NCBI GenBank assembly: GCA_041750555.1
Contig: JBGSZB010000011.1
Location: 588-64,587, forward strand
Direction: 5' to 3'
DNA: 64,000 nucleotides
Source: Candidatus Dojkabacteria bacterium
GTDB lineage: Bacteria > Patescibacteriota > Dojkabacteria > J137
The notes beneath the pieces were generated by a model. It saw only the letters and a program-made list of their open reading frames with translations, ran no database searches and was not told the DNA's origin. Numbering within the stretch: position 1 is the first letter of the stretch; each line of letters starts with the position of its first letter. The translations under genes were made by a program, and so were the position numbers. Shown in pieces: positions 3,213 to 27,801 of this stretch.

Positions 3213-3438
3213 TTAATACAGCTATTGCAATAGATAATACTGCAAATAGTATACCTAAAATGATAGTAGAATTATATAGTAAACCCTCTAAACCTCTTTT
3301 AGATCTATAAAATTCTCCTCCTGACATTCCACCAAATACAGTTCCTAGTCCTCCACTTCTATTTTGTAAAACAACTGCAACACATAAAAGAATAGCAACT
3401 ACTGCTAATATATATTTTAAAATGTTTACAAGATCCAT
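3205..3438 (-). CDS. secG: Preprotein translocase subunit SecG
   Basis: 77 aa, two TM segments, and the SecG signature ...VVLQNRSGGLGTVFGGMSGGEFY... Confidence 0.7.
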   Translation of the reverse strand: MDLVNILKYILAVVAILLCVAVVLQNRSGGLGTVFGGMSGGEFYRSKRGLEGLLYNSTIILGILFAVLSIAIAVLNA

Positions 3439-3490
3439 AATTTAATAATAACTAGTTGGAATTTTATCAGAATAAACCTTTATAGTAAAA

Positions 3491-3889
3491 CTATCTTGCT
3501 TTATATAACATGTCTATCCCTATAGCTACTACACTTGAGACAATTGTTAAATAAACTAAATTCAGAGTTTGCTCAGTTACTGTAACAATACCAATTAATT
3601 TAAAAATATCAGGAGTATTACCTGTAAAGGTAATTATCTCTAAGATTAAGCCAACAACTAGAAAATATATAAAACAAAAAATAGCACCTAAAAGTAATTC
3701 AGATGCATTATTTAGTGGAATCTTAAAAAATCTTAAAGTAAATGGAATTGCATAAATCATGACTCCAAATGCTAGAGCTAACATTAATTTATATATCAAT
3801 TCAGTTGGTAATAAAATACTACTACCAAATAATGTAGTAACTAAAAAAAAGACTGAAGTGTTCCTTAAAATTAAATACATTTCTTTCAT
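3491..3889 (-). CDS. Small polytopic membrane protein, function unknown
   Basis: 132 aa with about four hydrophobic segments. Overlaps ftsX by 4 bp, so probably co-transcribed. Confidence 0.4.
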   Translation of the reverse strand: MKEMYLILRNTSVFFLVTTLFGSSILLPTELIYKLMLALAFGVMIYAIPFTLRFFKIPLNNASELLLGAIFCFIYFLVVGLILEIITFTGNTPDIFKLIGIVTVTEQTLNLVYLTIVSSVVAIGIDMLYKAR

Positions 3890-4977
3890 CTTATATACCT
3901 TTTAATAGATAAAAAGCTACTAATAGAGCCAATTAAAAATCCAGTTACCGTACTTAGTAAAATTAACCCAACCCAACCTAATGTACTAACATATGGCCAA
4001 GGTAGATTACTAAAATTCTCATAAATAAATGTTGATAATACAGAGTTAGAATCTGCTACGAAAACTACAAATATAACACTCGCTATAAAAATTGATGAGA
4101 TAAAGGAACCAATTAACCCATAAAATCCACCCTCTAATATATATGGAGCTCTAATAAATGTAAGACTACCTCCAACTAATTGCATAACACCAATCTCCTC
4201 CATTTGATTGTAAAGCCTAAATTCTACAGTCATAAATGTAAAAAAGAATATAACAATAAATAATAGGGTAATAATAAATATTCCAGCAATCCTTACAGAA
4301 GTTAAAACCTCTCTTAATTGATCTAAGTTTTTATCATCAACTCTTAATTCTATTGGTGGTCTATTAGGATCTGTTTGATACTTGTATGTAAATTCTTCTA
4401 AAGATAAATCATCTTCCAAAGTTACATCTTCAGTAGTTACCTCTGTTGCGTTATCACCCTCCTCTGTTGGTGTTTCTTCTACAACCTCTGTATCACTTTC
4501 TTCTGTTTTAATAATCTTTAATAAACCCAACTCTTCATCAATACTTGATTGTATAGAATTTTTAACGCTTTCTAAATCAGATAAAGACCAAATTTGAATA
4601 TCTAAACTAGATGGTAATATCTTCTCCTCTTTTGTTTTTAAAATCTCATAAGTTTCAGGTAAAACTTTAGCTGTATAATCAGCATATTGCTCATAAGCTT
4701 GGGCTTCAGTTGTATATTCTATATCTTTAATTTTTGGATTACTCTTCCAAGTATCTCTTAATCTATCTACAACCTCTCTATCCATTCCTTCTTCAAAGAA
4801 AACTAATAAGTTACTTTTAGTTTCAATAAATTGAATATATAAATTAGAGATATATGCTAATCCTCCGAATATAATAGCAACTAAAAATGCTAATGTCATA
4901 ACACTAACAGAAGCCCAACCTACCCAGCCACTTCTTTTAATTTGTTTTAGTGAGTTCGCTAATATTCTTCTAAACAT
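3886..4977 (-). CDS. ftsX: Cell-division permease-like protein FtsX
   Basis: N-terminus MFRRILANSLKQIKRSGWVGWASVSVMTLAFLV is typical of FtsX. It has a large extracytoplasmic loop carrying an acidic E/T/D-rich insert and C-terminal TM helices, and sits immediately downstream of ftsE. Confidence 0.75.
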   Translation of the reverse strand: MFRRILANSLKQIKRSGWVGWASVSVMTLAFLVAIIFGGLAYISNLYIQFIETKSNLLVFFEEGMDREVVDRLRDTWKSNPKIKDIEYTTEAQAYEQYADYTAKVLPETYEILKTKEEKILPSSLDIQIWSLSDLESVKNSIQSSIDEELGLLKIIKTEESDTEVVEETPTEEGDNATEVTTEDVTLEDDLSLEEFTYKYQTDPNRPPIELRVDDKNLDQLREVLTSVRIAGIFIITLLFIVIFFFTFMTVEFRLYNQMEEIGVMQLVGGSLTFIRAPYILEGGFYGLIGSFISSIFIASVIFVVFVADSNSVLSTFIYENFSNLPWPYVSTLGWVGLILLSTVTGFLIGSISSFLSIKRYIR

Positions 4978-4991
4978 AATTTATTATATAA

Positions 4992-6353
4992 CTATTTCTT
5001 TAACTTTTTTATAGACTTAGAAATTAATTTAATCTCCCCTTTATCAATTATCATATCCTCATTTAATTTTTCAGGACCAGCTCTTAAAATATCACCTACA
5101 TTTTTATATCCATTAGCTTTTAAATCACTCTTAATATTTTTAGGTAAATCTAACTTATCTACACTTAACTCACCTACTTCATTTAAAAACTTTTCGTCTT
5201 CAACTTCTGCCTCATCCTTAACTTTCTTAGCATTATCCTTTTCTTTAGAAGCCTTATCATTAGATTTACTTTCATTTTCAGTTTCATTATCGTTTTCATT
5301 TTCTTTAACTACTTCATTTTTTTCTTCACCTTCATCTATTAGATCTTCAACATTTTCTATAACATCTTTTTTTGATTCAACAGGTATTTTTACTTTATCT
5401 TCTTCACTATATATCTCATCATAACTCTTATCTAATACATCAGTTATTTTTTCCTTTTTATCTGATCTTCTTAAAAATCCAAAGAATCTTCTTTTTTCAG
5501 GTTCTTTAATATCTTCAACAATCTCACTAACCTGGGTTTCTTCTGGTAAATTATCTTCTAAATCATTTATTTTAAATTTAAAACTCTTTTTCTCATTATT
5601 TTTCTTACTCTTTTTCTTTGTATCCTTTGGAGATTCTTCGTTATCTAAAACTAACTTTTCAAAGTTCTTAGATACCATTTCGTACTGTCCTTTATTATCA
5701 TCTCTAATAATCTTACCTCCCTCCATTTGAATAACTCTTTTATTTAGAGAGTTAACAATATCGGTTCCATGAGTAGACATAATTACTGTAGTACCCCAAT
5801 TATTAATTTTAGTTAAAACTTGAACAATATCCCAAGCACTTGCAGGATCTAAGTTACCTGTTGGTTCATCAGCTATTAATATCTTTGGATTATTTGAAAT
5901 AGCTCTAGCAATTGCTACTCTTTGTTGTTCTCCACCTGATAACTGTCTTGGAAACGAATTTAATCTATTAGAAAGACCTACAATATCTAAAACATAGGGA
6001 ACAGTTTCTTTAATCTCTTTAGTTGTTTTACCTGCAGCTTCCATTGCAAATGCTACATTTTCAAAAGCAGTTTTATCTGGAATTAATTTAAAATCTTGAA
6101 ATATTACACCTATCTCTCTTCTTAATTTATATACCTTTCTTCTATTAATTTTTGTTATATCAACCTCATCAAAAAATATCCTTCCGCTTGATGGAAGTTC
6201 ATCTCTAATTAACATTTTAATTACTGTAGTTTTACCACTTCCAGATGGACCTATCAAAAAAAGAAATTCTCCTTCATTAATTGTAAAGTTTACATTATCT
6301 ACTGCAGTTATATTTCCATCATACACTTTAGAAACATTATTAAACTCAACCAT
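4992..6353 (-). CDS. ftsE: Cell-division ABC ATPase FtsE, fused to a ~220-aa Lys/Glu/Asp-rich linker and a C-terminal helix-hairpin-helix (RpoA alpha-CTD-like) domain
   Basis: Residues 1-225 carry Walker [10 protein letters not shown], the ABC signature [14 protein letters not shown] and Walker [13 protein letters not shown]. The C-terminus ...[32 protein letters not shown]...[14 protein letters not shown] aligns by eye with the RpoA alpha-CTD HhH fold. Confidence 0.8.
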
Positions 6354-8379
6354 GCTTTTTTCTATAATTCTTAAAAATTTTTGTCTTAAAAGTATACTTG
6401 CTTTTTAAATTCTTTAACAGTCTAAAATTTATCCTTTTAGTTACACTCTTTTTATATTTAATTAACAGCGTTATTAAAAGAATTAATATAACTAGTATAA
6501 GTATTACTTTATACAAATCTTTATTTACATAAATATTTAAATTAATTAACCCATTACTTTCAAAGTTTTCAGATTTAATTACGTAATTTAAATTAGTATT
6601 GTTTGTATCTATTAAAAATATTCCTGGATTAATTTCTCCATTAACCTCTACCTCTGATAGTGGTGGAATTATTAAATTAGTGTCATTAATCACTTCCTCC
6701 ACATTGTAACTGTTATTTGATATTAAAATATCTTTTGGATAAAAAAAGAAATTATTTGGGTTATATATTCTTAAACCTAAATAGTTGGATACTCCAGATT
6801 GTAGAGATATATTAGAATCTATACTTAAACTCAATGTTTTTAAGTTATTTGAGCTTTCATTAACTTCACTAACTTCGTTTATGTCACTTAAAGTATTTAC
6901 ATCATTTTTTCTAAATTTAGAAATTATTGGAGAAGATATATCACTTCTTAATCCTAAAAACCCTGAGTTACTATCAAGGGACCACATTCCATAAGTTATT
7001 CTATCTCTAGAATCCTTCATAAAGTATGTTAAAAGATTAACCTCTTCTAAGAGTGGATCTAATATATATTCAGTGTTATCTAACTTAAATTCACACCAAA
7101 CATGAGGAGTAGATGTTTCATTTAATAAATATCCATAAACTATTCTAAAAGGAATATTAAATTCTTTAGCAAAGCTTCCAATTATGTAACAGTATTCAAA
7201 AGAATTAAATTTATCACTTTCACTTAACTTCTCCCATATTAAATTAACACTTTCATTACTTATAACTTCATTTAAATTAGGGCTTAATTTGTTCTTTAAG
7301 TACTCATTAACAGCTCTTAACTTCTCTAATGGGGTATTTACTACCTCTACAAACTCCAAAGCCTCTAAATAGAAGTTTTTAGATTTATCAATATTAAATT
7401 CATTGTTAAATACATTAAAACTCTCTTTTTCTATTCTGCTATTAAAATATTTAACATTATTTGTATTATTTAAATTACTCTCACTCTCTAGAATATTTGC
7501 ACCATTAGAATATATATTCATTTCAAAATTAAATTCAGTATCTGATTTAGGTATTAATACATAGTTATTTAAATACTTATCATTAAAAGCATAACTTAGT
7601 GTTGGAGAATTAAGATATTCAAATGTAAAATCTCTTTCAAATGGCAAATTAAAAAGTAAGTATGAATTTAAATTTATAATACCAATCTCATTTTCTAATA
7701 TATCCTCTTCTGTATTTTCACTAATATTTAAATCATTATTAACCCCAATCTTAAAATTTGAATAAACATTATCTATCTCTCCCCATAATATTTTTAATGC
7801 ACCATTACTAGATCCGCTTATACTATTCCCAATTGAATTGTAATCATTGGAATATACTGTTAAGTTATTACCAAAACTCACGGGATAAGTAATATTAAAT
7901 TTAAAGCTTTGTAGAGAAAAATCATTTTCATAGTATGGGAAGTAAAATTGTTTTAAAGAAAAAAACTCTTTAACTAAAGATTTAGTATCAAATTCAATAT
8001 TAAGTATTGGATCTAAATTAAATATTGATAATTTATCTTTTAAACTAATTAATAAACTAGTGGTATTACCCTCAACCTCTTTATTAAAGTTAAACTCTCC
8101 AAAAGTATTATCTACCTTTAAGTTTTCAATATCTTTAAAGGGGAATACTACTCTAACCGATTCAAATACCTTAGTATCTGTTACATTAATATAGCTGATA
8201 TTTAGTTTAAAGTTAGAATTTAAATTCTCATCAATTGTAATATCTATACTACTATCACTGTTTGCTAGTGCCTTAACTTTATTTATTTTAAAGTTTAATA
8301 ACAGTGTTATTGAAATTAATAACAGTATAGTAATTAGTAATATTTTAAATTTATTAAGCTTTATAGTTTTAAACCCCAT
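6346..8379 (-). CDS. Transglutaminase-like (Cys-His-Asp) domain surface protein with N-terminal signal/anchor and C-terminal TM plus basic tail
   Basis: 677 aa. The core EYCYIIGSFAKEFNIPFRIVYGY...TPHVWCEFKLDNTEYILDP matches the transglutaminase-like cysteine protease Cys/His/Asp arrangement. There is a hydrophobic N-terminus and a C-terminal TM followed by a K/R-rich tail. Confidence 0.5.
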   Translation of the reverse strand: MGFKTIKLNKFKILLITILLLISITLLLNFKINKVKALANSDSSIDITIDENLNSNFKLNISYINVTDTKVFESVRVVFPFKDIENLKVDNTFGEFNFNKEVEGNTTSLLISLKDKLSIFNLDPILNIEFDTKSLVKEFFSLKQFYFPYYENDFSLQSFKFNITYPVSFGNNLTVYSNDYNSIGNSISGSSNGALKILWGEIDNVYSNFKIGVNNDLNISENTEEDILENEIGIINLNSYLLFNLPFERDFTFEYLNSPTLSYAFNDKYLNNYVLIPKSDTEFNFEMNIYSNGANILESESNLNNTNNVKYFNSRIEKESFNVFNNEFNIDKSKNFYLEALEFVEVVNTPLEKLRAVNEYLKNKLSPNLNEVISNESVNLIWEKLSESDKFNSFEYCYIIGSFAKEFNIPFRIVYGYLLNETSTPHVWCEFKLDNTEYILDPLLEEVNLLTYFMKDSRDRITYGMWSLDSNSGFLGLRSDISSPIISKFRKNDVNTLSDINEVSEVNESSNNLKTLSLSIDSNISLQSGVSNYLGLRIYNPNNFFFYPKDILISNNSYNVEEVINDTNLIIPPLSEVEVNGEINPGIFLIDTNNTNLNYVIKSENFESNGLINLNIYVNKDLYKVILILVILILLITLLIKYKKSVTKRINFRLLKNLKSKYTFKTKIFKNYRKKHG

Positions 8380-8434
8380 TATATGTAATAATCCAACTAA
8401 TATATTAAAATATCCTAGATTAATAATACATTAA

Positions 8435-9298
8435 ATGCATAGTTTTAAAAAAAGTTTTGGACAAAATTTTCTAAAAGGCCATAAGTTTCAATCTTTAATG
8501 GTTGAATATCTAGATCTTAAAGAAGATGATTTAGTTATAGAGATTGGTCCTGGAGATGGCTCTCTAACTCTTCATCTATTAGAAACTAATGCATTAGTTA
8601 ACTCTATTGAAATTGATTACTCCCTTCTTCCAACATTACTTAGAAAGTTTGATCGGAATAATAACTTTAATTTAATTAATGAAGATATATTAAAATTAGA
8701 CTTTAAAGAACTTTTAAATAATACTTTTAATAAAGATAGGTTTAGTGAGTTATTAAAGGATAATAGAGGAGTTAAGATATGTGGTTCTCTTCCATACAAT
8801 ATTTCTAAAAGGATTATCTCTAGCTTATTAGATTTAAATTTATCTTTTCATATTGATAATAAATATGGAATTAAAATTGAATCTATGTGTTTTATTGTTC
8901 AAGATGAAGTTGCTAAAGAATATGTATCAAGACCCCCACAAGCTGCAAAACTCTCTGTAATTTCTTCCCTTTATTCTGATATTAAAAAGGGATTAAGTAT
9001 TCCTAAAGACTATTTTTATCCAAAACCTAAGGTTGATGGTGGGATATTAATATTTAAACCTTTAAATAATTCTGATGATTTTAATGTATTAAACATTAAA
9101 GAGATTATTAAATTAGTAAATATTGGATATATATCTCCTAGAAAAACGTTATACAACAACTTAAAATCTAGTAATAAATGGGATAGTGATAATATTTTAA
9201 AAAGTATTGAAGCTATTGGATTTATAAATACTACTAGGGCATCTGAGTTATCCCGTGATAATTGGATTAAGCTCTATTCTCTTTTAATTAATTCTTAA
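8435..9298 (+). CDS. rsmA: 16S rRNA (adenine1518/1519-N6)-dimethyltransferase RsmA/KsgA
   Basis: Contains FGQNFL...VIEIGPGDGSLT, the KsgA SAM-binding motifs. Confidence 0.85.
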   Translation: MHSFKKSFGQNFLKGHKFQSLMVEYLDLKEDDLVIEIGPGDGSLTLHLLETNALVNSIEIDYSLLPTLLRKFDRNNNFNLINEDILKLDFKELLNNTFNKDRFSELLKDNRGVKICGSLPYNISKRIISSLLDLNLSFHIDNKYGIKIESMCFIVQDEVAKEYVSRPPQAAKLSVISSLYSDIKKGLSIPKDYFYPKPKVDGGILIFKPLNNSDDFNVLNIKEIIKLVNIGYISPRKTLYNNLKSSNKWDSDNILKSIEAIGFINTTRASELSRDNWIKLYSLLINS

Positions 9299-11050
9299 AC
9301 CACCAAGTTTTAATATTGGGTTTAAATATCTTTTTAATATCTTTAACTCTTCAACTCTAAACAGCAAAGATAGTAAGTAGTAACTAAGAAGTGCTGTAAT
9401 TACACTAACAATAGTTAATATTAAAAGATTAAGCGTTGTAGATCCAAATACACCTCCATCTCCTGAAACTGGTAATGCATTGGCAATGCTATTCCATGTT
9501 TTATATAAAAAGTATAGTATTACAAACATAATAGCTCCACTGTAAAACTTAGGTAGGGTTGATTTAATTAGTTTTTTAAAGTTAAATTTATACTTTGTAT
9601 AGTGATAAATAATTAATAGTATAAAAAACTCTAGAGAATAAGTAATGCTCATAGCTAATGCTATTCCACCAATTGATGCTGAACTTGTTGGGTTAGGATT
9701 TCTATTTAGTAAATGTTCTAAACTTAACTGTATATCACTTATTGCTAAAGTATTGTTGTAACTAAATAGATTAGTAAATGCTATTGATAAAATTATTGTA
9801 AAGACTAATGATACAAGAGAAACAAGGAATGGATACATTGTGTCTTTTGCAGCGTAAAACACTCTGTAAATAAACCATCTACCACAAATAAATACATGAC
9901 CTAATGTAAACCATAATAATATCCATGCAGTTAAACTTGTATCATCAAAACCAAATCTTGTATTTGGAATTATACCAAATACTAATCTAACTATTGGCAC
10001 TCTTAAAACTATTAAAATAATTATAAAAGGTAGGGATAAAAACAATATCTCATTTAGTGTCTTAATTATTACATCTTCAGCCCTTTTGTTATCATTTTCT
10101 TCATATAACTCAGCTAATATTGTATAAGATGGAACTGAAAAGGTATAGCCAAATAGCGTTGGGATAACTAATGATAGGGAATTAGCATAAGTTAGAGCTG
10201 CAATATTTCCTGAAATTCCATAAGCTAGAAATTTATTAAATGTAAAAGCAATATGTTCACTAGCTATAGCAAATATTCTTGGTAATCCAGTTCTTAATAT
10301 CTCTAGAACATATTTATTTAATATTGCAATTACCGGTACATATCCAAGTTTTAATTTAATAACTAGGGGTATTTGTACAAATAGATGTAAGAATGATCCT
10401 ACAAATACTCCGACAACTATTGCCCATGGACTGTAATTCATTAATGGAACAAGTATAAATAACATAACTACTCTTCCAATGTTATAAAACAATGGTGCTA
10501 ATTGAGGAACTAAATATCTGTTATGAACATTTAAACCACTTGATATAAATACACTAAATCCTAATACTACTTGAGGAATTAATAGCACTCTCATCATTGA
10601 GATAATTATCTCGTAATCTGCAATATTAATTACTGTATCTGGTTCAAATAGATTTAAAAGAAATGGTAGAGTTGTATCTGCAGTAACCGCCAAAATTATT
10701 GCAACTATTGAAAATATTAATATAGATAAATTAATTATTGAACTATATACTTTTCTAAATTCAATATTACCCTCTCTCTTTTTAACTGTTATAAGTGTTG
10801 GTATAACAATTGAACCTAGAGTACCAATTAAAAATACATTTGTAAGTAATTCTGGTATAGAACTCGCAACAAGAAATTGATTCCAACCTAATTCTTTAGT
10901 ACCAAAATATGAAGCTGCTATTAAATTAAAAAATAATCCAGAAAGTTTAGTTAAAAGAGCAGGTAACATTAAAAGTAGTGCTGTTTCTAATATCTCTGTT
11001 TGTTCTCTACTAAGTAATCTTCCAACTTTTTTTATTCCTCTATTAAGCAT
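9284..11050 (-). CDS. murJ: Lipid II flippase MurJ (MviN family)
   Basis: 588 aa with about 14 TM segments. The N-terminal region ...LSREQTEILETALLLMLPALLTKLSGLFFNLIAASYFG is typical of MurJ. Confidence 0.7.
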   Translation of the reverse strand: MLNRGIKKVGRLLSREQTEILETALLLMLPALLTKLSGLFFNLIAASYFGTKELGWNQFLVASSIPELLTNVFLIGTLGSIVIPTLITVKKREGNIEFRKVYSSIINLSILIFSIVAIILAVTADTTLPFLLNLFEPDTVINIADYEIIISMMRVLLIPQVVLGFSVFISSGLNVHNRYLVPQLAPLFYNIGRVVMLFILVPLMNYSPWAIVVGVFVGSFLHLFVQIPLVIKLKLGYVPVIAILNKYVLEILRTGLPRIFAIASEHIAFTFNKFLAYGISGNIAALTYANSLSLVIPTLFGYTFSVPSYTILAELYEENDNKRAEDVIIKTLNEILFLSLPFIIILIVLRVPIVRLVFGIIPNTRFGFDDTSLTAWILLWFTLGHVFICGRWFIYRVFYAAKDTMYPFLVSLVSLVFTIILSIAFTNLFSYNNTLAISDIQLSLEHLLNRNPNPTSSASIGGIALAMSITYSLEFFILLIIYHYTKYKFNFKKLIKSTLPKFYSGAIMFVILYFLYKTWNSIANALPVSGDGGVFGSTTLNLLILTIVSVITALLSYYLLSLLFRVEELKILKRYLNPILKLGGLRIN

Positions 11051-21896: not shown

Positions 21897-22159
21897 TAAA
21901 CTTTATATGGCTCTATCATAGAATATCTACTACCGTGTTCCTCTACAAACTCTGTAGTCATATCTGTACCACAATTAAACATATCTCCACCTGTATGAGT
22001 ATTTCTTAATTGAGTAACATCATAACTATCACCACTAACAGTTATTAAACATCTGGAATCTAAAAGAAGAGCATTTTGATTATTTAAAACTACAAAAGAC
22101 ACTACCCCTATTACAACTATTAATACACCTAAACCTAAGATAACTAACTTAGTATTCAT
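21896..22159 (-). CDS. Small secreted or membrane-anchored protein
   Basis: 87 aa with an N-terminal signal/anchor and two Cys. Confidence 0.3.
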   Translation of the reverse strand: MNTKLVILGLGVLIVVIGVVSFVVLNNQNALLLDSRCLITVSGDSYDVTQLRNTHTGGDMFNCGTDMTTEFVEEHGSRYSMIEPYKV

Positions 22160-22201
22160 AGACTACTATTAAAAGATATATATAATGATATATTAAAATT
22201 A

Positions 22202-22867
22202 CTATGAAGACAAAGTGAAGTCATTATCTTTAAAGCTGTAAAAGCCATTTGTAGACACAATTACATGATCAAGTAGTTTAATACCTAATATCTCACCTGC
22301 TTTTACTAAAGTTTTAGTCATCTCACAATCTTCCCTTGATGGCTCATAATCTCCAGAAGGATGGTTATGAGAGATAATAATAGCAGTTGCATTACTTTTA
22401 ATAGCAAGTTCATATACTTCTCTTGGATGAAGCATTGCTTCATTAACAGTACCAATAGATACTAACTCTTTAGAGATTAAAATATTCCTAGAGTTTAATA
22501 TGAAAACAATTAAACATTCCTTTTTAGAAGATAGGTACTCACTCATTAAAGTATAAACCTCTTTAGGAGTTAAAATCTCAGGCTTTTGTGTTAAATTTAA
22601 CCTTTTAATAAGTTCAATTGAGGAGATAATTTGAGAAGCCTTAGTTATACCAATACCCTTAATATCAGTTAAATCACTTATAGTTATAGAATTAATTCCT
22701 TTTTTAAGTATTAAATTTAAAACTTTTTTAGAAAGATTAACAACGTTTTCTCCTTTTCTACCTGTTCTAATAATTAAACTTAAAAGTTCATCATCACTTA
22801 ATTTGGATAAACCATATTTAATTAATTTTTCTCTTGGATATTCTATCCTATTTAAATCTCTTAACAT
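22202..22867 (-). CDS. radC: RadC-like JAB/MPN-domain protein (UPF0758)
   Basis: An N-terminal HhH-like region is followed by the JAMM motif HNHPSGDYEPSREDCEMT. Confidence 0.8.
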   Translation of the reverse strand: MLRDLNRIEYPREKLIKYGLSKLSDDELLSLIIRTGRKGENVVNLSKKVLNLILKKGINSITISDLTDIKGIGITKASQIISSIELIKRLNLTQKPEILTPKEVYTLMSEYLSSKKECLIVFILNSRNILISKELVSIGTVNEAMLHPREVYELAIKSNATAIIISHNHPSGDYEPSREDCEMTKTLVKAGEILGIKLLDHVIVSTNGFYSFKDNDFTLSS

Positions 22868-22945
22868 TTAAATATATTAAGTGATTTAATTTACAAAGTT
22901 ATTACAGAAAAATATTTTAAGTATATAAATATTAAAGCAATTGAA

Positions 22946-23698
22946 TTATTCAAAAAGAATAAATAAATACATAACAGCTATACCAAGAATAAAACTTAAT
23001 ATCCTTAAGATATATTTAAAACTATTACTCTCCCTATGTATTTCTGGAACTAAATTTACTAATGCAATATATATAAATTGACCAGCTGCGAATGGTATTA
23101 AAAATGTTGATACACCATCAACTAATTCGTTAAGTAAAAATGTTATTACTACACCTATCATTGCCGTTAAACCAACTAAGAGATTTGCAATTAATACCTT
23201 TTTCTTATCCCACCCGCTATATATTAAAATACCTGCATCTGCTAATTCTTGAGGTATTTCATGCAATACTACAGCAATAGTTGTAGCTACTCCAACTGCA
23301 GGACTTACAATAAAAGATGTAGCAATTGCTATTCCATCTAAAATATTATGTACACTATCTCCTACTAAATTAATTTTAGCTAATTTCTTATTATGTTTAT
23401 GAGTAGTATGATCATCTTCTAATTCATGATGATGTTGATGAATAGTTGATTCAACAATTAACATAAATATTATTCCTAAGAATAAAGAAATCATAATATC
23501 TATACTAAATCCAAATTCTTCTATAGATTCCCCTAATAAATGAAAGAATGAATCTCCAAGTAATGTACCTGCTGCAAATGAAACTAATAGAGATATTATT
23601 AAAGATTTAGAACTAATCTTTCTAAAAAATAACAGAACTCCAATTAATGATATAAGACTAACTATTAGTGAAGCTAATAAACTATTTAGTAATTCCAT
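22946..23698 (-). CDS. zupT: ZIP-family zinc transporter ZupT
   Basis: 250 aa with about eight TM helices, a His-rich loop (HQHHHELEDDHTTHKH) and the ZIP signature HEIPQELADAGIL. Confidence 0.8.
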   Translation of the reverse strand: MELLNSLLASLIVSLISLIGVLLFFRKISSKSLIISLLVSFAAGTLLGDSFFHLLGESIEEFGFSIDIMISLFLGIIFMLIVESTIHQHHHELEDDHTTHKHNKKLAKINLVGDSVHNILDGIAIATSFIVSPAVGVATTIAVVLHEIPQELADAGILIYSGWDKKKVLIANLLVGLTAMIGVVITFLLNELVDGVSTFLIPFAAGQFIYIALVNLVPEIHRESNSFKYILRILSFILGIAVMYLFILFE

Positions 23699-23714
23699 AA
23701 ATGACTATTAAAAT

Positions 23715-24218
23715 TTAAAATATTTGCTTAATTAAATGAATTGTTTGAAATTCATCTTTTGATTCGTAGACTATTTCAAATCCCATTGAAACCCAGTATT
23801 CTAATGAACCAGGAATATTCCTTTGGGTATGTAAGTATATATAACTGTATCCTTTTCTTTTTGCGAATGACTCAATTTTTTTAAACATCTTTCTTCCTAA
23901 ACCTTTTCGCCTTAAAGATTTTAGAATATAATGTCTCCACAACGAAATAGTACTATCTCCGTTAAACACTTCTGGATCTAAAAATTCATAGTTTCTATCA
24001 TATGGTCTAGCTGCAATTGTACCAACTATAGTATTTTTATCTTTTAATACTAAAAATAGTTTTTTTTCACCTATGTAGAAGTTATTAACATCATCGATAT
24101 CTTTATGCCAGACAGGATTATATTTATATCCAAAGTCAGCTTCTAAAACACCGAAAATAAAATTTCTTACTTGTGGAATATCAAATTCTTCTAATTTTAC
24201 AATTTTTAGCTTATTCAT
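23715..24218 (-). CDS. GNAT-family N-acetyltransferase
   Basis: 167 aa with the acetyl-CoA-binding motif LRRKGLGRKMFKKIESFAKRKGYSYIYL. Overlaps the upstream NAS-like gene by 8 bp. Confidence 0.6.
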   Translation of the reverse strand: MNKLKIVKLEEFDIPQVRNFIFGVLEADFGYKYNPVWHKDIDDVNNFYIGEKKLFLVLKDKNTIVGTIAARPYDRNYEFLDPEVFNGDSTISLWRHYILKSLRRKGLGRKMFKKIESFAKRKGYSYIYLHTQRNIPGSLEYWVSMGFEIVYESKDEFQTIHLIKQIF

Positions 24219-24972
24219 TTCTTAAGATAACTGCTGAATTAACTACATCATTAAAAGGATCAACTCTAAGTATTGGCTTAAAGATTTTGAATATTGAACT
24301 ACTTAAAGGCCTATATAATATTCTCCTATTACCCCAGCTAGATCTAGCAACTATATGTGTTCCCGACTTAGAGGTAGCTTTAATTCTTAAGAAAATCTTT
24401 CTTTTTGTTGAAGAATTTAAGCCTGCCAATGCTGCAACAAATACTGTATTGTAATCTTTATAGTTAAATCTTTCACCACTTGATTTAATAATTTTAATAC
24501 TACTATCTAAATCTAGCTGTTTAATTAACTTTTCGGATAGGTTAACAGCATCCTCGTCCATGTCTATAATTGTTGATTTGATATTATGATAAAGAGATAG
24601 AACAATTGCAGTCATGGGGAGTGGACCACCTCCGATAAATACAACTTCATGATTATCATGTTTAGAGCACCCCATTAAAGTAAATATTTCTAATTTTGTT
24701 AAATCAATATAATTCTTTATATAAGGGAATTTTTTAAACTCTTCTATTGAGTTATTAGAGGAAATTATTCTAAGTGACCAATATTTTTCAAGCTCATATT
24801 CTGCCTTTGCAGATAGAATCTGCAATCTTGATATTTCATACCTTGTCAGCTTAGCATCTAAAGAATACTTAACCGATTTTTCTACAAGTTGAGTAAATAA
24901 TTCGTTTACTTCAGTGCTTGGAGTAAAATCCTTCAATTCCTCAATCTTTTTATATAATTCTCTTATTGTCAT
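24211..24972 (-). CDS. Nicotianamine synthase-like (NAS/CntL-family) aminobutyryl transferase
   Basis: 253 aa. Motifs VVFIGGGPLPMTAIVLS, FVAALAGLN, RSSWGNRRILYRP and NDVVNSAVI correspond to the plant and archaeal NAS signatures VAFVGSGPLPLTSIVLA, FLAALVGM, RSAHGxRxFLYP and DDVINSVV. Confidence 0.7.
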   Translation of the reverse strand: MTIRELYKKIEELKDFTPSTEVNELFTQLVEKSVKYSLDAKLTRYEISRLQILSAKAEYELEKYWSLRIISSNNSIEEFKKFPYIKNYIDLTKLEIFTLMGCSKHDNHEVVFIGGGPLPMTAIVLSLYHNIKSTIIDMDEDAVNLSEKLIKQLDLDSSIKIIKSSGERFNYKDYNTVFVAALAGLNSSTKRKIFLRIKATSKSGTHIVARSSWGNRRILYRPLSSSIFKIFKPILRVDPFNDVVNSAVILRNE

Positions 24973-24974
24973 AT

Positions 24975-25337
24975 TTATTTACAATCTCTACATTTACCAC
25001 TTAAATTTAATTCAATATTAGAAAACGATATTTCTTTAGGCAATATTTTTTTTAACTTTTTAATATCAACATCAACTGGTATAACTTTTTCACAATTTTT
25101 ACATATAAAGTGTTGATGATAATCTCCCTCTATATTTAATTCAAATGAGGATATACCTTTTTTAATATTTACCTCTCTTAATATTCCAAGGCTTGTTAAT
25201 AGTGTTAAATTTCTATATATTGTTACTTTATCAATTTGAGGTAGTTTATTAATTACATCATTAGCAGTTAATAGAGATCTATCTTTAAATAACTTTAATA
25301 TTAAATCTCTTTTTGTTGAATGTTTCATAAAATGCAA
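24975..25337 (-). CDS. Fur-family metalloregulator (Zur/Fur-like)
   Basis: About 118-120 aa with a winged-helix N-terminus and the C-terminal structural-metal Cys pairs HQHFICKNCEKV ... CRDCK. The annotated TTG start at 25337 overlaps the operator, so the ATG at 25326-25328 (MKHST...) may be the true start. Confidence 0.7.
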   Translation of the reverse strand: MHFMKHSTKRDLILKLFKDRSLLTANDVINKLPQIDKVTIYRNLTLLTSLGILREVNIKKGISSFELNIEGDYHQHFICKNCEKVIPVDVDIKKLKKILPKEISFSNIELNLSGKCRDCK

Positions 25338-25371
25338 TTAAGTTGCGAAATTATATTGCAACTAAGTTGCA
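25333..25371. promoter_or_regulatory. Two tandem inverted-repeat operator sites TGCAA-N5-TTGCA, candidate Zur/Fur box upstream of the regulator-NAS-GNAT-zupT operon
   Basis: TGCAATTAAGTTGC (25333-25346) and TGCAACTAAGTTGCA (25357-25371) are near-identical copies with 5-bp perfect inverted arms. They sit immediately 5' of the Fur-like gene on the transcribed side. Confidence 0.45.
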
Positions 25372-25423
25372 TTGTCAAACACTAATTAAATTTAGGTGGT
25401 ATTTATAGATGTTTAATTATTGG

Positions 25424-25990
25424 TTAATTATTCTTTAATTGTTCAATAATATGTTCTGGGAAGTTATCTCTATTTAAAATATTTTTAAATGAAGATATTT
25501 TAATTAAAGCTTCATCATAACTAGTTAATAAATCATAATCTCTACCTTGTACTAAACCAAAGTAACCTCGACTTACAAGTGATAAAAACTTAGTATATAG
25601 TCTTGGCAATATTCCAATTGTAGGTCCAAATACCATCTCTTCATTTTGTGCCATTCCTAATTTATATCTCATAAATAATCTAAAAGCTTTTAAATCTGGA
25701 GTAAAGTTAGTTCCTTTTCTCATTTCAATTACTAAATGAAATATACTATTAGTGTAACTATATTTAGGATTATTTTGTATAAAGTCTTTAATTGATAATG
25801 TTTGTTGATTTAATAAAAATTCTAAATCATGAAGTTTTAATCTGTTATTAAATATTATCCTTGTAATTATCTTATTCTTTTTTAAATCTTTATCGTATTT
25901 AAAAAAAAATGTAGAGATTAAAAGTGATCTCTTGTTATTAATTTTGACGACCTTGTAATCTTTTTCTTCAGGCATAAAATTAAACTTCAA
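25424..25990 (-). CDS. Hypothetical protein
   Basis: 188-aa ORF with no recognisable motif. Confidence 0.35.
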   Translation of the reverse strand: MKFNFMPEEKDYKVVKINNKRSLLISTFFFKYDKDLKKNKIITRIIFNNRLKLHDLEFLLNQQTLSIKDFIQNNPKYSYTNSIFHLVIEMRKGTNFTPDLKAFRLFMRYKLGMAQNEEMVFGPTIGILPRLYTKFLSLVSRGYFGLVQGRDYDLLTSYDEALIKISSFKNILNRDNFPEHIIEQLKNN

Positions 25991-26034
25991 TATATTTATT
26001 ATATATCATTGTGTGTATTTATTTAAAGATATGA

Positions 26035-26325
26035 TTGAACTTTAGTACAAAAGTAATAATATATTTATATAATTATTATTTTCATTCTATGTCATACTTA
26101 AACACACTAAAGGTTATTTTAGTTATATCTATAGCAGGAATACTGTTTTCTGGTTACTTATCTTATTATGAGCTCTTTTCTGTAAATGGTTGTAGCGATG
26201 CAATAATATCTTGTGGGACAAAGAATGTAACTATTGCAAATTTACCAGCATGCGTTTATGGTTTTGTAATGTATTTAATAGTGTTTATTCTTTCACTAAC
26301 TAGTTTATTAAAGAATAGGAAGTAA
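26035..26325 (+). CDS. VKOR (vitamin K epoxide reductase)-like N-terminal fragment; truncated, possibly a pseudogene
   Basis: 96 aa. TM1 is followed by the loop Cys pair and conserved pattern ...YYELFSVNGCSDAIISCGTKNV...LPACVYGFVMYL, matching the first half of VKOR. The ORF stops before the TM4 CXXC active site, and no continuation is seen in another frame. Confidence 0.35.
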   Translation: MNFSTKVIIYLYNYYFHSMSYLNTLKVILVISIAGILFSGYLSYYELFSVNGCSDAIISCGTKNVTIANLPACVYGFVMYLIVFILSLTSLLKNRK

Positions 26326-26350: not shown

Positions 26351-26668
26351 TTAGGATTCTTCTTGAACTTTTAAATACAATACGTCTAGAGTGAGACAAT
26401 GTGGTTTACCAAAAGGTTTAGGGATTTCATGGGTATATACTCCCATACTAAGAACCCCTCTTGCAATTAATTCATCAATTAATCTAAGTACTCTTCCCTC
26501 ACTTAAGAATCTATTTTTAACACACTCAACAATTAACCAACTCTTAGTAACATAGTTTAAACCAGTAGAAGATGTATATGGAATAATTACCTCATTTAAT
26601 AAAAAGGAGATATCTCTTTCAATATCACTTTCTCTTCTCTCTATATATTTATCTATAATATTAGTCAT
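26351..26668 (-). CDS. Hypothetical protein (downstream partner of the 378-aa ORF)
   Basis: 105 aa. The upstream ORF's stop overlaps this ORF's start codon in an ATGA junction. Confidence 0.35.
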   Translation of the reverse strand: MTNIIDKYIERRESDIERDISFLLNEVIIPYTSSTGLNYVTKSWLIVECVKNRFLSEGRVLRLIDELIARGVLSMGVYTHEIPKPFGKPHCLTLDVLYLKVQEES

Positions 26669-27801
26669 ACTTCACAAAATAATGGGTGTTGATAAATAAA
26701 ATTTACTAATTCTACATCAATATTTGGATTATATACCCCTGAAACATCTTTACCACTTTTTAATCTATTATAGTAATCTCTACTGTTATTCATAATATCC
26801 ATAAGTAATGATAAACATTTTATTGCTTCAAATTGATCTACAAATACAGGTATTGGTTTTACTTCATTACCTATAAAGTATCTATAAGTTACATTAGATT
26901 CATTTTCATTTACTGGTAAGTGAGCTAATAAATCAAAAATATCATTAACTTCAATTTTAATATATTGTGCTTTACCCACTTTAATATTTTTCCTTAAAGA
27001 TAATATTTTTGTAACTATAGTTAATAGTACTATCTGTAATTTTTCATATATATTAAACTCTTTTGGATTAGTAAATTTATCATCTATACATTTAGAAGTT
27101 TTATCTCTATCAAGTTCTTTAGAATGTATAAAGCTATCTAATCTAATATATATTCTTAATTCCTTACCTCCAACACATAAATGAAGTATTACAGGCATTT
27201 CTAAATGAACATCACAACCAGATAATTCTTCTAATATTGCAGATCTATCTTCTACCTTTTTTAACAAAGATCTTTCTCTTAAACCCCTACGGGCAGTTTT
27301 CCACATCTCTTTTAATTTATCTAGCGATATTTCATTAGTTATGAAACTAGTTTGTCCATTAGCATTTAAATGATTACTAAACTCATTTAATCTAAACCAT
27401 TCTTCAAAAGCTATCTCTACTAAATCAGAAACTCTGGTATCAGGATTTTGTATTAGTGGTAAATATATACTCACGAATTCTTTAAAAAACTTTTTTAATT
27501 TATCATCATAAATTGGTATATCCTTTAGGGGATATTTGTAATCACCCCTATTTTTAATTAAAAACAATACTTTATACAGATAAAGTAACATATGACCCTG
27601 TACACCTCTAAAGGATCCATATAGTTTTTCAATATCATCTTCAGTTAAAAGAGATCTCTCTATTCCTTCATCTAATTCTCTAATAGCTTCAATACTACTT
27701 AAAGATATTAGAACAGATTTATCTCTTAGTGTTTCAACGCTAGTTACCTCATCTACTCTAGAAAATAGTGAGGATTGTCTTGTATATAATAGATGTGCCA
27801 T
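26665..27801 (-). CDS. Hypothetical protein
   Basis: 378 aa, soluble, no recognisable motif. Translationally coupled to the 105-aa ORF downstream. Confidence 0.4.
   Translation of the reverse strand: MAHLLYTRQSSLFSRVDEVTSVETLRDKSVLISLSSIEAIRELDEGIERSLLTEDDIEKLYGSFRGVQGHMLLYLYKVLFLIKNRGDYKYPLKDIPIYDDKLKKFFKEFVSIYLPLIQNPDTRVSDLVEIAFEEWFRLNEFSNHLNANGQTSFITNEISLDKLKEMWKTARRGLRERSLLKKVEDRSAILEELSGCDVHLEMPVILHLCVGGKELRIYIRLDSFIHSKELDRDKTSKCIDDKFTNPKEFNIYEKLQIVLLTIVTKILSLRKNIKVGKAQYIKIEVNDIFDLLAHLPVNENESNVTYRYFIGNEVKPIPVFVDQFEAIKCLSLLMDIMNNSRDYYNRLKSGKDVSGVYNPNIDVELVNFIYQHPLFCEV

What the first reader, a model, noticed from the sequence alone, without database searches (positions are those of the whole stretch)
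22946..25371. Fur/Zur-regulated nicotianamine-synthase-like + GNAT + ZupT operon: candidate novel zinc-metallophore system
Four genes are packed on one strand with overlapping or very short junctions. These are a Fur-family regulator, a protein with clear nicotianamine synthase family motifs (GGGPLPMTAIVLS, FVAALAGLN, RSSWGNRRILYRP, NDVVNSAVI), a GNAT acetyltransferase and a ZIP transporter with a His-rich loop. Known bacterial NAS-like enzymes (CntL of the staphylopine, pseudopaline and yersinopine systems) partner with an opine dehydrogenase (CntM) and dedicated ABC/MFS transporters. Archaeal NAS acts alone to make thermonicotianamine. A NAS-GNAT-ZupT combination under a Fur/Zur-type regulator has not, as far as I know, been characterised. 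It could produce an N-acylated nicotianamine-like chelator coupled to ZIP-mediated zinc uptake. It is also unexpected in a genome that otherwise looks biosynthetically minimal.
Basis: partly seen in the sequence, partly recalled or inferred. Interest (0 to 1): 0.75.

Follow-up and report, generated by a model that had tools for sequence, protein, structure and literature searches.

The report
Zinc-regulated nicotianamine synthase–acetyltransferase operon
A tiny-genome (Patescibacteria) bacterium has a nicotianamine-synthase gene and a dedicated acetyltransferase gene sitting between the regulator and transporter genes of a common zinc-starvation operon, and the same enzyme pair recurs, sometimes fused into one protein, in other bacteria and in methanogenic archaea, which points to an uncharacterised acetylated metal-binding molecule.

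Summary
Four tightly packed minus-strand genes encode a Fur-family regulator, a nicotianamine synthase (NAS; PF03059, E 1.4e-47), a GNAT acetyltransferase and a ZIP transporter. They sit behind a consensus promoter whose spacer holds a perfect 7-1-7 palindrome.

Comparative work adds three points.
- The palindrome is a conserved operator. Elsewhere it precedes Fur-ZIP and Fur-ZnuACB operons, so the regulator behaves as a Zur. This operon looks like a Zur-ZIP unit with NAS-GNAT inserted.
- The GNAT belongs to a small subfamily tied to NAS. It is adjacent in 18 of 80 independently retrieved NAS loci and fused to NAS in at least 8 protein clusters. In Methanobacteriaceae it lies next to the ortholog of the crystallised archaeal enzyme MtNAS.
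- No CntM opine dehydrogenase and no dedicated chelate transporter is present.

The most likely function is zinc-starvation-induced synthesis of an N-acylated nicotianamine-like chelator, while ZIP imports zinc ions separately. The product, the acyl donor and the site of action (inside or outside the cell) are inferred, not shown.

I rate it a new variant of a known kind, of moderately high interest.

The parts
25373..25378 (-). -35 hexamer TTGACA of the operon promoter
   Evidence: TTGACA-17-TATAAT, 12 of 12 matches, the only perfect site in 22100-26100. The same TTGAC-N2-3-TGCAAC arrangement is seen in related loci.
25357..25371 (.). Operator 1: perfect 7-1-7 palindrome TGCAACTtAGTTGCA, filling the promoter spacer
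   Evidence: TGC[AG]AC-N3-GT[CT]GCA occurs 14 times in 939 kb of fetched loci, always just upstream of a NAS or Fur-NAS operon. With the -35 hexamer attached it is found in at least 120 metagenome stretches.
25350..25355 (-). -10 hexamer TATAAT
25333..25347 (.). Operator 2: imperfect copy (2 mismatches), downstream of the -10 hexamer and over the expected transcription start
   Evidence: The same two-copy layout is seen in L001 and L020.
24975..25328 (-). Fur-family repressor, inferred Zur (117 aa from the ATG at 25328; an upstream TTG at 25337 is possible)
   Evidence: PF01475, E 1.7e-18. It has two CxxC motifs at residues 76 and 113. Sequence alone cannot separate Fur, Zur and PerR. Zur is inferred from the genes that the shared operator precedes elsewhere.
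24211..24972 (-). Nicotianamine synthase family enzyme (253 aa), MtNAS-like rather than CntL-like
   Evidence: PF03059, 162.8 bits. The CntL equivalog scores 35 bits against a cut-off of 350. Against PDB sequences, MtNAS scores E 6e-19 and CntL E 0.02. The AF2 model has pLDDT 93.3 and matches MtNAS at TM 0.85-0.86 and CntL at 0.69-0.75 apart from one poorly superposed chain. E62 and Y88 align with MtNAS E81 and Y107 and are invariant in 29 homologs.
23715..24218 (-). NAS-associated GNAT N-acyltransferase (167 aa); its start overlaps the NAS stop by 8 nt
   Evidence: PF00583, E 3e-13. The AF2 model has pLDDT 93.8 and a GNAT fold. The R103-x-x-G106-x-G108 CoA motif is invariant. The subfamily is small, with 97 representatives at E<=1e-10 among 1.84e9, and is adjacent or fused to NAS.
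22946..23698 (-). ZIP-family divalent-metal importer (250 aa) with a His-rich loop
   Evidence: PF02535, E 1.2e-47. Motifs HNILDG (117) and HEIPQE (146) are present. ZIP directly follows Fur behind the same operator in 20 of 81 metagenome matches.

Best explanation
This is a zinc-starvation operon of a Patescibacteria bacterium.

Regulation: a Zur-type Fur-family repressor binds two copies of TGCAACTnAGTTGCA that overlap its own consensus promoter. It releases them when zinc is scarce, which switches on all four genes.

Biosynthesis: the NAS enzyme uses S-adenosylmethionine to join 3-amino-3-carboxypropyl units into a nicotianamine- or thermonicotianamine-like polyaminocarboxylate. The dedicated GNAT then acylates a free amine of that molecule, most plausibly acetylating the terminal alpha-amine. 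This takes the place of the opine-forming CntM step in staphylopine-type pathways. It would also stop further chain growth.

Uptake: the ZIP protein imports Zn2+ ions independently of the chelator. It belongs to the Zur-ZIP unit within which the NAS-GNAT pair lies.

Site of action: no exporter or chelate importer is linked here, and the partner genes elsewhere are cytosolic (COG0523 GTPases, an unknown soluble family). I therefore lean slightly (about 55:45) towards a cell-associated zinc-buffering or hand-off role rather than a classical secreted zincophore.

Shown: gene families, fold, conserved catalytic residues, the conserved operator and what it precedes elsewhere, and NAS-GNAT linkage and fusion.

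Inferred: repression by zinc, the product's structure, the acyl donor, the order of the steps and the location of action.
For: Genes and families:
- Families and junctions.
- NAS is MtNAS-like and keeps the catalytic Glu and Tyr.
- No opine dehydrogenase appears among the neighbours recurring in 2 or more of 32 related loci, nor in any window ORF of 250 aa or more.

NAS-GNAT coupling:
- All four contigs carrying close GNAT homologs are Fur-NAS-GNAT.
- 18 of 80 independently retrieved NAS loci carry this GNAT subfamily within 1.5 kb, across Patescibacteria, actinomycetes, alphaproteobacteria, Nostoc and Methanobacteriaceae.
- At least 8 representatives of different 50%-identity clusters are NAS::GNAT fusions, always in that order.
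- The subfamily has only 97 members at E<=1e-10 among 1.84e9 representatives.

Regulation:
- The promoter is 12/12, with the palindrome in its spacer.
- All 14 operator hits in 939 kb lie upstream of NAS operons; my own estimate of the chance expectation is about 0.2.
- The promoter-plus-operator pattern has at least 120 metagenome matches. Downstream lie Fur (62 of 81), Fur-ZIP (20), ZIP alone (4) and Fur-ZnuA-ZnuC-ZnuB; a Pfam census of 85 downstream proteins gives ZnuA 21, ABC_tran 17 and ABC-3 9.
- COG0523 is next to NAS in about 10 loci and Fur in 13 of 32.

One cassette within a Zur-ZIP unit: L149 is a plain Fur-ZIP operon whose proteins are 59% and 46% identical to the window's. L001, at 63% and 54%, carries NAS::GNAT between the two genes.
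Against: - No product has been detected and nothing here shows chemistry. The GNAT fold gives no substrate: its top structural matches are uncharacterised GNATs, followed by assorted amine acetyltransferases.
- Acetylating a coordinating amine would remove a metal ligand, which is not obviously useful.
- Metal specificity is indirect. The regulator cannot be typed from sequence and the COG0523 neighbours cannot be sub-typed. ZnuA-family proteins include manganese binders. The Francisella homolog sits beside a NikA-like binding protein, and methanogen loci carry CbiM-, ECF- and FeoB-type genes.
- A secreted role is plausible. All characterised bacterial NAS-like products are secreted (my knowledge), the 54%-identical Francisella NAS is flanked by an MFS transporter and an Opp/Nik-type ABC importer, and YibE/F membrane proteins recur near NAS.
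- Co-transcription is inferred from spacing only.
Confidence: 0.55

Rival explanations
1. It is a classical secreted zincophore. The N-acyl nicotianamine-like molecule is exported, captures zinc outside the cell and is re-imported, or hands zinc to ZIP at the surface, using transporters encoded elsewhere. Candidates are a YibE/F-type membrane protein or the orphan SBP_bac_5 binding protein at 1233-3212.
For: The Francisella homolog (54% identity) lies between an MFS transporter and an Opp/Nik-type ABC importer, with Fur and COG0523 nearby. YibE/F membrane proteins lie within 2 kb of NAS in about 12 of 80 loci, including Fur-NAS-GNAT-YibE/F-ZIP in L070. The window has an SBP_bac_5 gene. All characterised bacterial NAS-like products are secreted metallophores (my knowledge; reviewed in PMC7438024).
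Against: There is no exporter or chelate importer in or beside this operon. The SBP_bac_5 gene is 20 kb away, next to FtsE/X-like genes, and has no operator. The other recurrent partners, COG0523 and the ~190-aa family, are soluble proteins. To my knowledge ZIP proteins transport ions, not chelates.
Confidence: 0.35
2. The GNAT is a protective enzyme rather than a tailoring enzyme. It acetylates a toxic side product of NAS chemistry, such as free azetidine-2-carboxylate, or it transiently inactivates the chelator inside the producer. The functional molecule would then be the non-acetylated NAS product.
For: N-acetyltransferases are frequent neighbours of bacterial azetidine-2-carboxylate synthases, including Patescibacteria clades, and were proposed there to detoxify that compound (PMC11794875). 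The GNAT's weak sequence and fold matches include resistance-type amino-acid acetyltransferases (PAT/BAR, ArsN, tabtoxin resistance protein). One member of the subfamily is fused to an AstE/AspA-type N-acyl-amino-acid deacylase, which is compatible with an acetylation/deacetylation cycle.
Against: Repeated end-to-end NAS::GNAT fusions and conservation of the pair from bacteria to methanogens are more typical of consecutive pathway steps. MtNAS-type enzymes are not known to release azetidine-2-carboxylate (my knowledge). About 60 of the 80 NAS loci show no GNAT of this subfamily within the 6-kb flanks.
Confidence: 0.15
3. The operon responds to, and the chelator serves, a metal other than zinc, such as nickel, cobalt, iron or manganese.
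For: The regulator scores equally against Fur, Zur, PerR and Nur structures. ZupT-type ZIPs are broad-range (my knowledge). PF01297 includes manganese binders. The Francisella binding protein is closest to NikA-type models. Methanogen NAS loci sit among CbiM-, ECF- and FeoB-type genes.
Against: The shared operator precedes ZnuA/ZnuC/ZnuB-type and ZIP importers, and COG0523 genes recur next to NAS. This combination characterises Zur regulons (PMC2770081, abstract only, as listed). No iron-uptake or peroxide-defence genes were seen behind the operator.
Confidence: 0.15

Closest known systems
Cnt opine-metallophore systems (staphylopine, pseudopaline, yersinopine, bacillopaline: CntK/L/M with CntABCDF or CntO/I and an exporter)
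   Same: A NAS-family aminobutyrate transferase acts under Zur-type control during zinc limitation. The free amine left by the NAS-like step is further modified. Accessory acetyltransferases were already noted in a minority of Cnt clusters (PMC7438024).
   Different: The enzyme here is not a CntL: 35 bits against a cut-off of 350, and PDB sequence E 0.02 against 6e-19 for MtNAS. There is no CntM opine dehydrogenase, no CntK and no linked chelate ABC importer or exporter. A dedicated GNAT takes the position of CntM.
Archaeal thermonicotianamine synthase MtNAS (PDB 3FPE and related entries)
   Same: It is the closest solved relative by sequence and by fold, and the catalytic Glu and Tyr are conserved. 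Orthologs of MtNAS in Methanobacteriaceae have the same GNAT subfamily next to them.
   Different: Identity is only about 25%. In methanogens the GNAT is divergently transcribed and the surrounding genes are CbiM-, ECF- and FeoB-type rather than Zur and ZIP. To my knowledge thermonicotianamine has been described as the product of NAS alone, and the GNAT has not been considered.
Plant and fungal nicotianamine pathway (NAS, then NAAT and DMAS in grasses)
   Same: It belongs to the same Pfam family. The terminal amine of the NAS product is the point of further elaboration, and nicotianamine acts mainly as an intracellular or internal metal ligand (my knowledge; PMC10248798).
   Different: Tailoring would be by acylation, not by transamination and reduction. 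The context is a prokaryotic operon with a metal-sensing repressor. Whether an azetidine ring is formed is unknown.
Zur regulons (Zur with ZnuABC, ZupT/ZIP and COG0523) and Bacillus-type 7-1-7 Fur-family boxes
   Same: An autoregulated Fur-family repressor has a 7-1-7 palindrome overlapping the promoter, and the targets are ZnuACB-type and ZIP importers. COG0523 genes lie nearby.
   Different: The box sequence TGCAACTnAGTTGCA differs from the published Fur, PerR and Zur boxes that I know of. A NAS-GNAT pair is an unusual, minority member of the regulon: 0 of 81 sampled operator sites in metagenomes carried it.

Membership tests
Nicotianamine synthase family (PF03059) | Full-length match to the family profile above the curated cut-off | tested here: met
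   162.8 bits against a cut-off of 27.1; residues 2-251 match profile positions 11-270 of 276.
Nicotianamine synthase family (PF03059) | Catalytic Glu and Tyr of MtNAS (E81, Y107) conserved | tested here: met
   E62 and Y88 align with E81 and Y107 in an ungapped stretch (E81 is identified through the E81Q entries listed). Both are invariant in 29 homologs. The role of Y107 is from my recollection of Dreyfus et al. 2009, which I could not read.
Nicotianamine synthase family (PF03059) | NAS fold (N-terminal helical domain plus a Rossmann-like SAM-binding domain) | tested here: met
   The AF2 model has pLDDT 93.3. Its top PDB matches are MtNAS at TM 0.85-0.86 and E 1e-16.
Nicotianamine synthase family (PF03059) | SAM-dependent aminocarboxypropyl transfer that gives a nicotianamine-like product | not testable with these tools
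   This needs an enzyme assay with LC-MS.
CntL / Cnt opine-metallophore system | CntL equivalog-level similarity | tested here: not met
   NF033601 scores 35.1 bits against a cut-off of 350. CntL chains score E 0.02 by sequence and 14-15% identity with TM 0.69-0.75 by fold, leaving out one poorly superposed chain at TM 0.51.
CntL / Cnt opine-metallophore system | Opine dehydrogenase CntM encoded with the NAS-like gene | tested here: not met
   No such family appears in the operon or its neighbours, in any window ORF of 250 aa or more, or among the neighbours recurring in 2 or more of 32 related loci.
CntL / Cnt opine-metallophore system | Dedicated exporter and Opp/Nik-type chelate importer in the cluster | tested here: not met
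   ZIP is the only transporter in the operon. An orphan SBP_bac_5 gene lies 20 kb away without an operator. Such transporters are present in the Francisella relative.
GNAT acyl-CoA N-acyltransferase superfamily | Profile match, GNAT fold and the R/Q-x-x-G-x-G/A CoA-binding motif | tested here: met
   PF00583 scores 50.5 bits against a cut-off of 20.7. The model has pLDDT 93.8 and matches GNAT structures at TM about 0.8. R103, G106 and G108 are invariant.
GNAT acyl-CoA N-acyltransferase superfamily | Identity of the acyl donor and acceptor | tested here: inconclusive
   No NCBIfam equivalog is reached; the best score is 25 bits against a cut-off of 250. The nearest structures are uncharacterised or chemically diverse.
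ZIP (ZupT-type) metal importer | Profile match, HNxxDG and HExPxE metal-site motifs, and a His-rich cytoplasmic loop | tested here: met
   PF02535 scores 163 bits. HNILDG is at 117, HEIPQE at 146 and the loop reads HQHHHELEDDHTTHKH. The ZupT equivalog is not reached: 80.5 bits against a cut-off of 252.
Zur (zinc-sensing Fur-family repressor) | Fur-family fold with a structural Cys4 site | tested here: met
   PF01475 scores 67 bits. CxxC motifs are at residues 76 and 113.
Zur (zinc-sensing Fur-family repressor) | Palindromic operator overlapping the promoters of zinc-uptake genes | tested here: met
   The 7-1-7 palindrome lies in the promoter spacer. The same promoter-operator precedes Fur-ZIP and Fur-ZnuACB operons in metagenomes and NAS operons in 12 further loci. 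Assignment of the operator to this particular protein rests on autoregulatory position only.
Zur (zinc-sensing Fur-family repressor) | Sequence-level assignment to Zur rather than Fur, PerR or Nur | tested here: inconclusive
   All NCBIfam equivalogs fall far below their cut-offs. Fur, Nur, Zur and PerR structures all score E 1e-10 to 1e-5.
Zur (zinc-sensing Fur-family repressor) | Zinc-dependent DNA binding and repression | not testable with these tools
   This needs EMSA or footprinting with and without zinc, or expression data.

The most novel reading that the evidence does not exclude
NAS and this GNAT subfamily form an ancient two-enzyme pathway, shared by Patescibacteria, other bacteria and Methanobacteriaceae, whose true end product is an N-acylated nicotianamine-type ligand. 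Thermonicotianamine, as described for MtNAS alone, would then be an intermediate. In Patescibacteria the molecule would act as a Zur-controlled intracellular zinc buffer or hand-off ligand working with ZIP and COG0523 proteins, rather than as a secreted metallophore. That would be a third way of capping the NAS product, beside opine formation (CntM) and transamination (NAAT).
Probability: 0.3. Interest if true: 0.8.

Novelty: new variant of a known kind. Interest (0 to 1): 0.62.

Why it matters
- **Field:** nicotianamine-type chelators are central to metal nutrition in plants and to zinc piracy by pathogens. Only two ways of elaborating the NAS product are characterised, opine formation and transamination. 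A dedicated, often fused, acyltransferase partner that reaches into the methanogen lineage of the crystallised enzyme suggests an unrecognised class of N-acyl nicotianamine-like molecules. It also suggests that the archaeal pathway, as currently described, may be incomplete.
- **Patescibacteria:** these organisms are thought to make very little for themselves. A zinc-regulated small-molecule pathway, together with a defined Zur operator (TGCAACTnAGTTGCA), gives a concrete and testable handle on their metal economy.
- **Testability:** both points can be checked directly with two recombinant enzymes and one EMSA.

Tried and rejected
- **Typing the regulator from sequence.** NCBIfam equivalogs and PDB relatives do not discriminate Fur, Zur, PerR and Nur. 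I used regulon content instead.
- **Sub-typing the COG0523 neighbours.** The CobW, ZigA and PRK11537 (GTPase) models score alike and all fall below their cut-offs.
- **Reading the GNAT substrate from its structure.** The fold is generic, and the top hits are uncharacterised structural-genomics GNATs.
- **The 188-aa ORF upstream (25424-25990).** I tested whether it belongs to the recurrent ~190-aa NAS-linked family. It does not: there is no similarity and no Pfam or NCBIfam hit.
- **The ~190-aa family as a disguised GNAT.** I rejected this: hhalign probability is 0.3% and there is no PDB hit.
- **More operator copies in the window.** Only the two at the promoter are convincing. The two 3-mismatch hits are at chance level, since 17 of 100 shuffles give at least 4 matches.
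- **Locating the window's own contig.** The NAS protein is listed from a 69,641-bp NCBI contig, but it has no name or record in the look-up tables. Taxonomy therefore came from LeuRS relatives.
- **Key papers.** Dreyfus et al. 2009 and Laffont & Arnoux 2020 are not held, so I cannot exclude that the latter mentions the GNAT neighbour.
- **Predicting the fusion protein's structure.** I did not do this, because no coordinates or inter-domain confidence are returned, so it could not show whether the two active sites face each other.
- **Chance adjacency of an unrelated GNAT.** I rejected this because of the fusions and the cross-domain conservation.


Full report
**1. Observation**

Four ORFs lie head to tail on the minus strand:
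- a Fur-family gene at 24975-25337, where the ATG at 25328 gives 117 aa;
- NAS at 24211-24972 (253 aa);
- GNAT at 23715-24218 (167 aa);
- ZIP at 22946-23698 (250 aa).

The junctions are a 2-nt gap, an 8-nt overlap and a 16-nt gap. Pfam places the four proteins well above the curated cut-offs: FUR 1.7e-18, NAS 1.4e-47, Acetyltransf_1 3e-13 and Zip 1.2e-47.

The genome is bacterial (class A RNase P) with about 27% GC. The nearest named relatives of its LeuRS are Candidatus Dojkabacteria at 56-62% identity, so it is a Patescibacteria (CPR) genome. Type IV pilus genes are also present in the window.

**2. The NAS enzyme**

It is a true NAS-family protein and is closer to the archaeal thermonicotianamine synthase than to CntL.
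- Against PDB sequences, MtNAS scores E 6e-19 and CntL E 0.02.
- The CntL equivalog model scores 35 bits against a cut-off of 350.
- An AlphaFold model (pLDDT 93.3) superposes on MtNAS at TM 0.85-0.86. On CntL chains it reaches 0.69-0.75, apart from one poorly superposed chain at 0.51.
- MtNAS E81 and Y107 align with E62 and Y88 in an ungapped stretch, and both are invariant in 29 homologs.

**3. The GNAT is a dedicated partner of NAS**

- A word-indexed search found only five close relatives. The three I looked up lie on four contigs, and each contig reads Fur-NAS-GNAT with overlapping junctions. One of them, L083, continues into ZIP exactly as the window does.
- One NAS homolog, P0005, is a 418-aa NAS::GNAT fusion. 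Its contig reads cobW, Fur, NAS::GNAT, ZIP.
- An exhaustive HMMER search of 1.84 billion representatives found only 97 proteins at E<=1e-10. The long hits P0073, P0075, P0076, P0079, P0097, P0101 and P0157 are also NAS::GNAT fusions by Pfam.
- Among 80 NAS loci fetched from species-representative genomes without reference to their neighbours, subfamily HMMs find this GNAT within 1.5 kb of NAS in 18. These include Patescibacteria, actinomycetes, alphaproteobacteria, a Nostoc fusion and five Methanobacteriaceae-type loci.
- In the methanogen loci the NAS is the MtNAS ortholog (E 4e-94 to 3FPE). The GNAT shares the diagnostic motifs of the window protein.
- The GNAT model is confident (pLDDT 93.8), but its nearest solved structures are uncharacterised GNATs followed by assorted amine acetyltransferases. 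The substrate therefore cannot be read from the fold.

**4. Regulation**

The only 12/12 sigma-70 consensus site in the region is TTGACA-17-TATAAT at 25378-25350. Its spacer is filled by the perfect palindrome TGCAACTtAGTTGCA (25357-25371), and a 2-mismatch copy lies at 25333-25347.

The palindrome is phylogenetically conserved. TGC[AG]AC-N3-GT[CT]GCA occurs 14 times in 939 kb of fetched loci. All 14 are immediately upstream of NAS or Fur-NAS operons, usually between a TTGAC and a TATAAT-like hexamer. My own estimate of the chance expectation is about 0.2.

In the 81 matches held:
- the first downstream gene is the Fur-family gene in 62;
- Fur-ZIP occurs in 20 and ZIP alone in 4;
- a frequent arrangement is Fur followed by proteins of about 310, 250 and 265 aa;
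- a Pfam census of 85 downstream proteins gives ZnuA 21, ABC_tran 17 and ABC-3 9.

By regulon content the repressor therefore behaves as a Zur, although its sequence alone does not separate it from Fur, PerR or Nur. COG0523 genes next to NAS in about 10 loci fit this reading. The link between a subset of COG0523 proteins and zinc is made in PMC2770081, of which I saw only the abstract.

**5. Architecture**

None of the 81 sampled operator sites carries NAS. The window's regulator and ZIP are 59% and 46% identical to those of a plain Fur-ZIP operon with a 16-nt spacer (L149). They are 63% and 54% identical to those of L001, where NAS::GNAT lies between the two genes. The simplest reading is that NAS-GNAT is an accessory cassette inside a widespread Zur-ZIP unit. 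ZIP is therefore not a specific partner of the chelator. The ZIP protein has the HNxxDG and HExPxE metal-site motifs and a His-rich loop.

**6. What is absent**

No opine dehydrogenase appears in the operon, in any of the 33 window ORFs of 250 aa or more, or among the neighbours recurring in 2 or more of 32 related loci. No exporter or chelate importer is linked. An orphan SBP_bac_5 gene at 1233-3212 sits beside FtsE/X-like genes and has no operator. By contrast, the 54%-identical Francisella NAS is flanked by an MFS transporter and an Opp/Nik-type ABC importer.

**7. Mechanism (inference)**

Under zinc limitation Zur leaves the operator. NAS builds a nicotianamine- or thermonicotianamine-like polyaminocarboxylate from SAM. 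The GNAT acylates a free amine, most plausibly the terminal alpha-amine. That is the same position that CntM and NAAT modify in the known pathways (my knowledge). ZIP imports Zn2+ ions.

The location of action is unresolved. The cytosolic partners and the lack of transporters favour a cell-associated buffer or hand-off ligand. The Francisella context and the recurrent YibE/F membrane proteins favour secretion. The rivals are a protective rather than tailoring GNAT (compare the acetyltransferases next to azetidine-2-carboxylate synthases, PMC11794875) and a metal other than zinc.

**8. Literature**

- The CntM-anchored survey of zincophore clusters noted accessory acetyltransferases in a few Cnt clusters, but its text has no hit for GNAT, Francisella or Patescibacteria and mentions ZIP only once, for ZupT (PMC7438024).
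- Searches for acetylated nicotianamine returned nothing.
- No listed paper links nicotianamine with Patescibacteria, and the single paper holding both 'nicotianamine synthase' and 'Francisella' is about interspecies sensing.
- Searches on NAS with Zur or COG0523 and on nicotianamine-like compounds with N-acetyltransferases listed no paper whose title or abstract describes this pairing.
- NAS phylogeny papers do not mention it.
- Dreyfus 2009 and Laffont & Arnoux 2020 could not be read, so prior mention cannot be excluded.

**9. Verdict**

This is a new variant of a known kind of system: a NAS-based metal-ligand pathway under Zur control. Its new feature is a dedicated, frequently fused GNAT that also accompanies the archaeal enzyme. 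The chemistry is untested.

Noticed in passing
L004 7633-8160, L027 7679-8275, L021 6809-7372 and 16 further loci (none in the window): A soluble family of about 175-210 aa has no Pfam, NCBIfam or PDB match and carries invariant His and Cys residues (HC...C). It follows NAS or NAS-cobW in 19 of 80 genome loci, including Nanohaloarchaea and a Methanosarcinales MAG. It is nearly mutually exclusive with the GNAT (they co-occur only in L032) and is not a GNAT by profile comparison. It may be an alternative partner of NAS.
   Followed up: partly
L070 7297-8496, L008 7190-8323 and about 10 further NAS loci: YibE/F-like membrane proteins (PF07907, function unknown) recur within 2 kb of NAS. In L070 one sits inside the operon, which reads Fur-NAS-GNAT-YibE/F-ZIP. 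They also follow some operator-driven Fur operons in metagenomes. They are candidates for transporting the NAS product.
   Followed up: partly
L096 6617-10250; L099 2771-6370 (minus strand); L159 9678-12874: The same Zur-like promoter-operator precedes, without a Fur gene, a three-gene set: a ParA/NUBPL-like P-loop NTPase, an Orn/DAP-decarboxylase-like PLP enzyme and a PALP::rhodanese fusion. This may be another zinc-regulated small-molecule or cofactor pathway.
   Followed up: partly
P0080, P0170, P0180 (metagenomic proteins): The same GNAT subfamily also occurs fused to an AstE/AspA-type N-acyl-amino-acid deacylase (P0080) and, with the GNAT at the N-terminus, to class I SAM methyltransferase domains (P0170, P0180).
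   Followed up: no
L002 (Francisella hispaniensis, JACTTU010000003.1) 1346-9443: A NAS 54% identical to the window's lies between an MFS transporter and an Opp/Nik-type ABC importer, with a Fur-family gene and a COG0523 gene nearby and no CntM or GNAT in the stretch held. It looks like an uncharacterised CntM-less metallophore locus in a culturable genus.
   Followed up: partly
window 1233-3212 and 3886-6353: An orphan SBP_bac_5 solute-binding protein (the family of the Opp, Nik and Cnt binding proteins) sits next to FtsX-like and ABC ATPase genes rather than an Opp-type permease set. There is no operator nearby.
   Followed up: partly
window 25424-25990 and 26665-27801 (minus strand): The ORFs directly upstream of the operon (188 aa and 378 aa) have no Pfam match. 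The 188-aa ORF also has no NCBIfam match and is unrelated to the ~190-aa NAS-linked family despite its similar size and position.
   Followed up: partly
L004 = OZ246419.1 (810,692 bp): The same contig is labelled 'uncultured Gammaproteobacteria' in the genome collection and 'Patescibacteria group bacterium' in the NCBI protein record of P0031. Several of the low-GC 'Gammaproteobacteria' MAG labels among the NAS loci may therefore be misassigned.
   Followed up: no
L078 569-5001 and 6664-9745 (Methanobacterium sp.): Here the MtNAS ortholog and its GNAT neighbour sit among a large His-rich surface protein, a CbiM-like membrane protein, an ECF-type ATPase and FeoB. This suggests a nickel, cobalt or iron context in methanogens rather than a zinc one. 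These identifications come from reading the translations, not from family scans.
   Followed up: no
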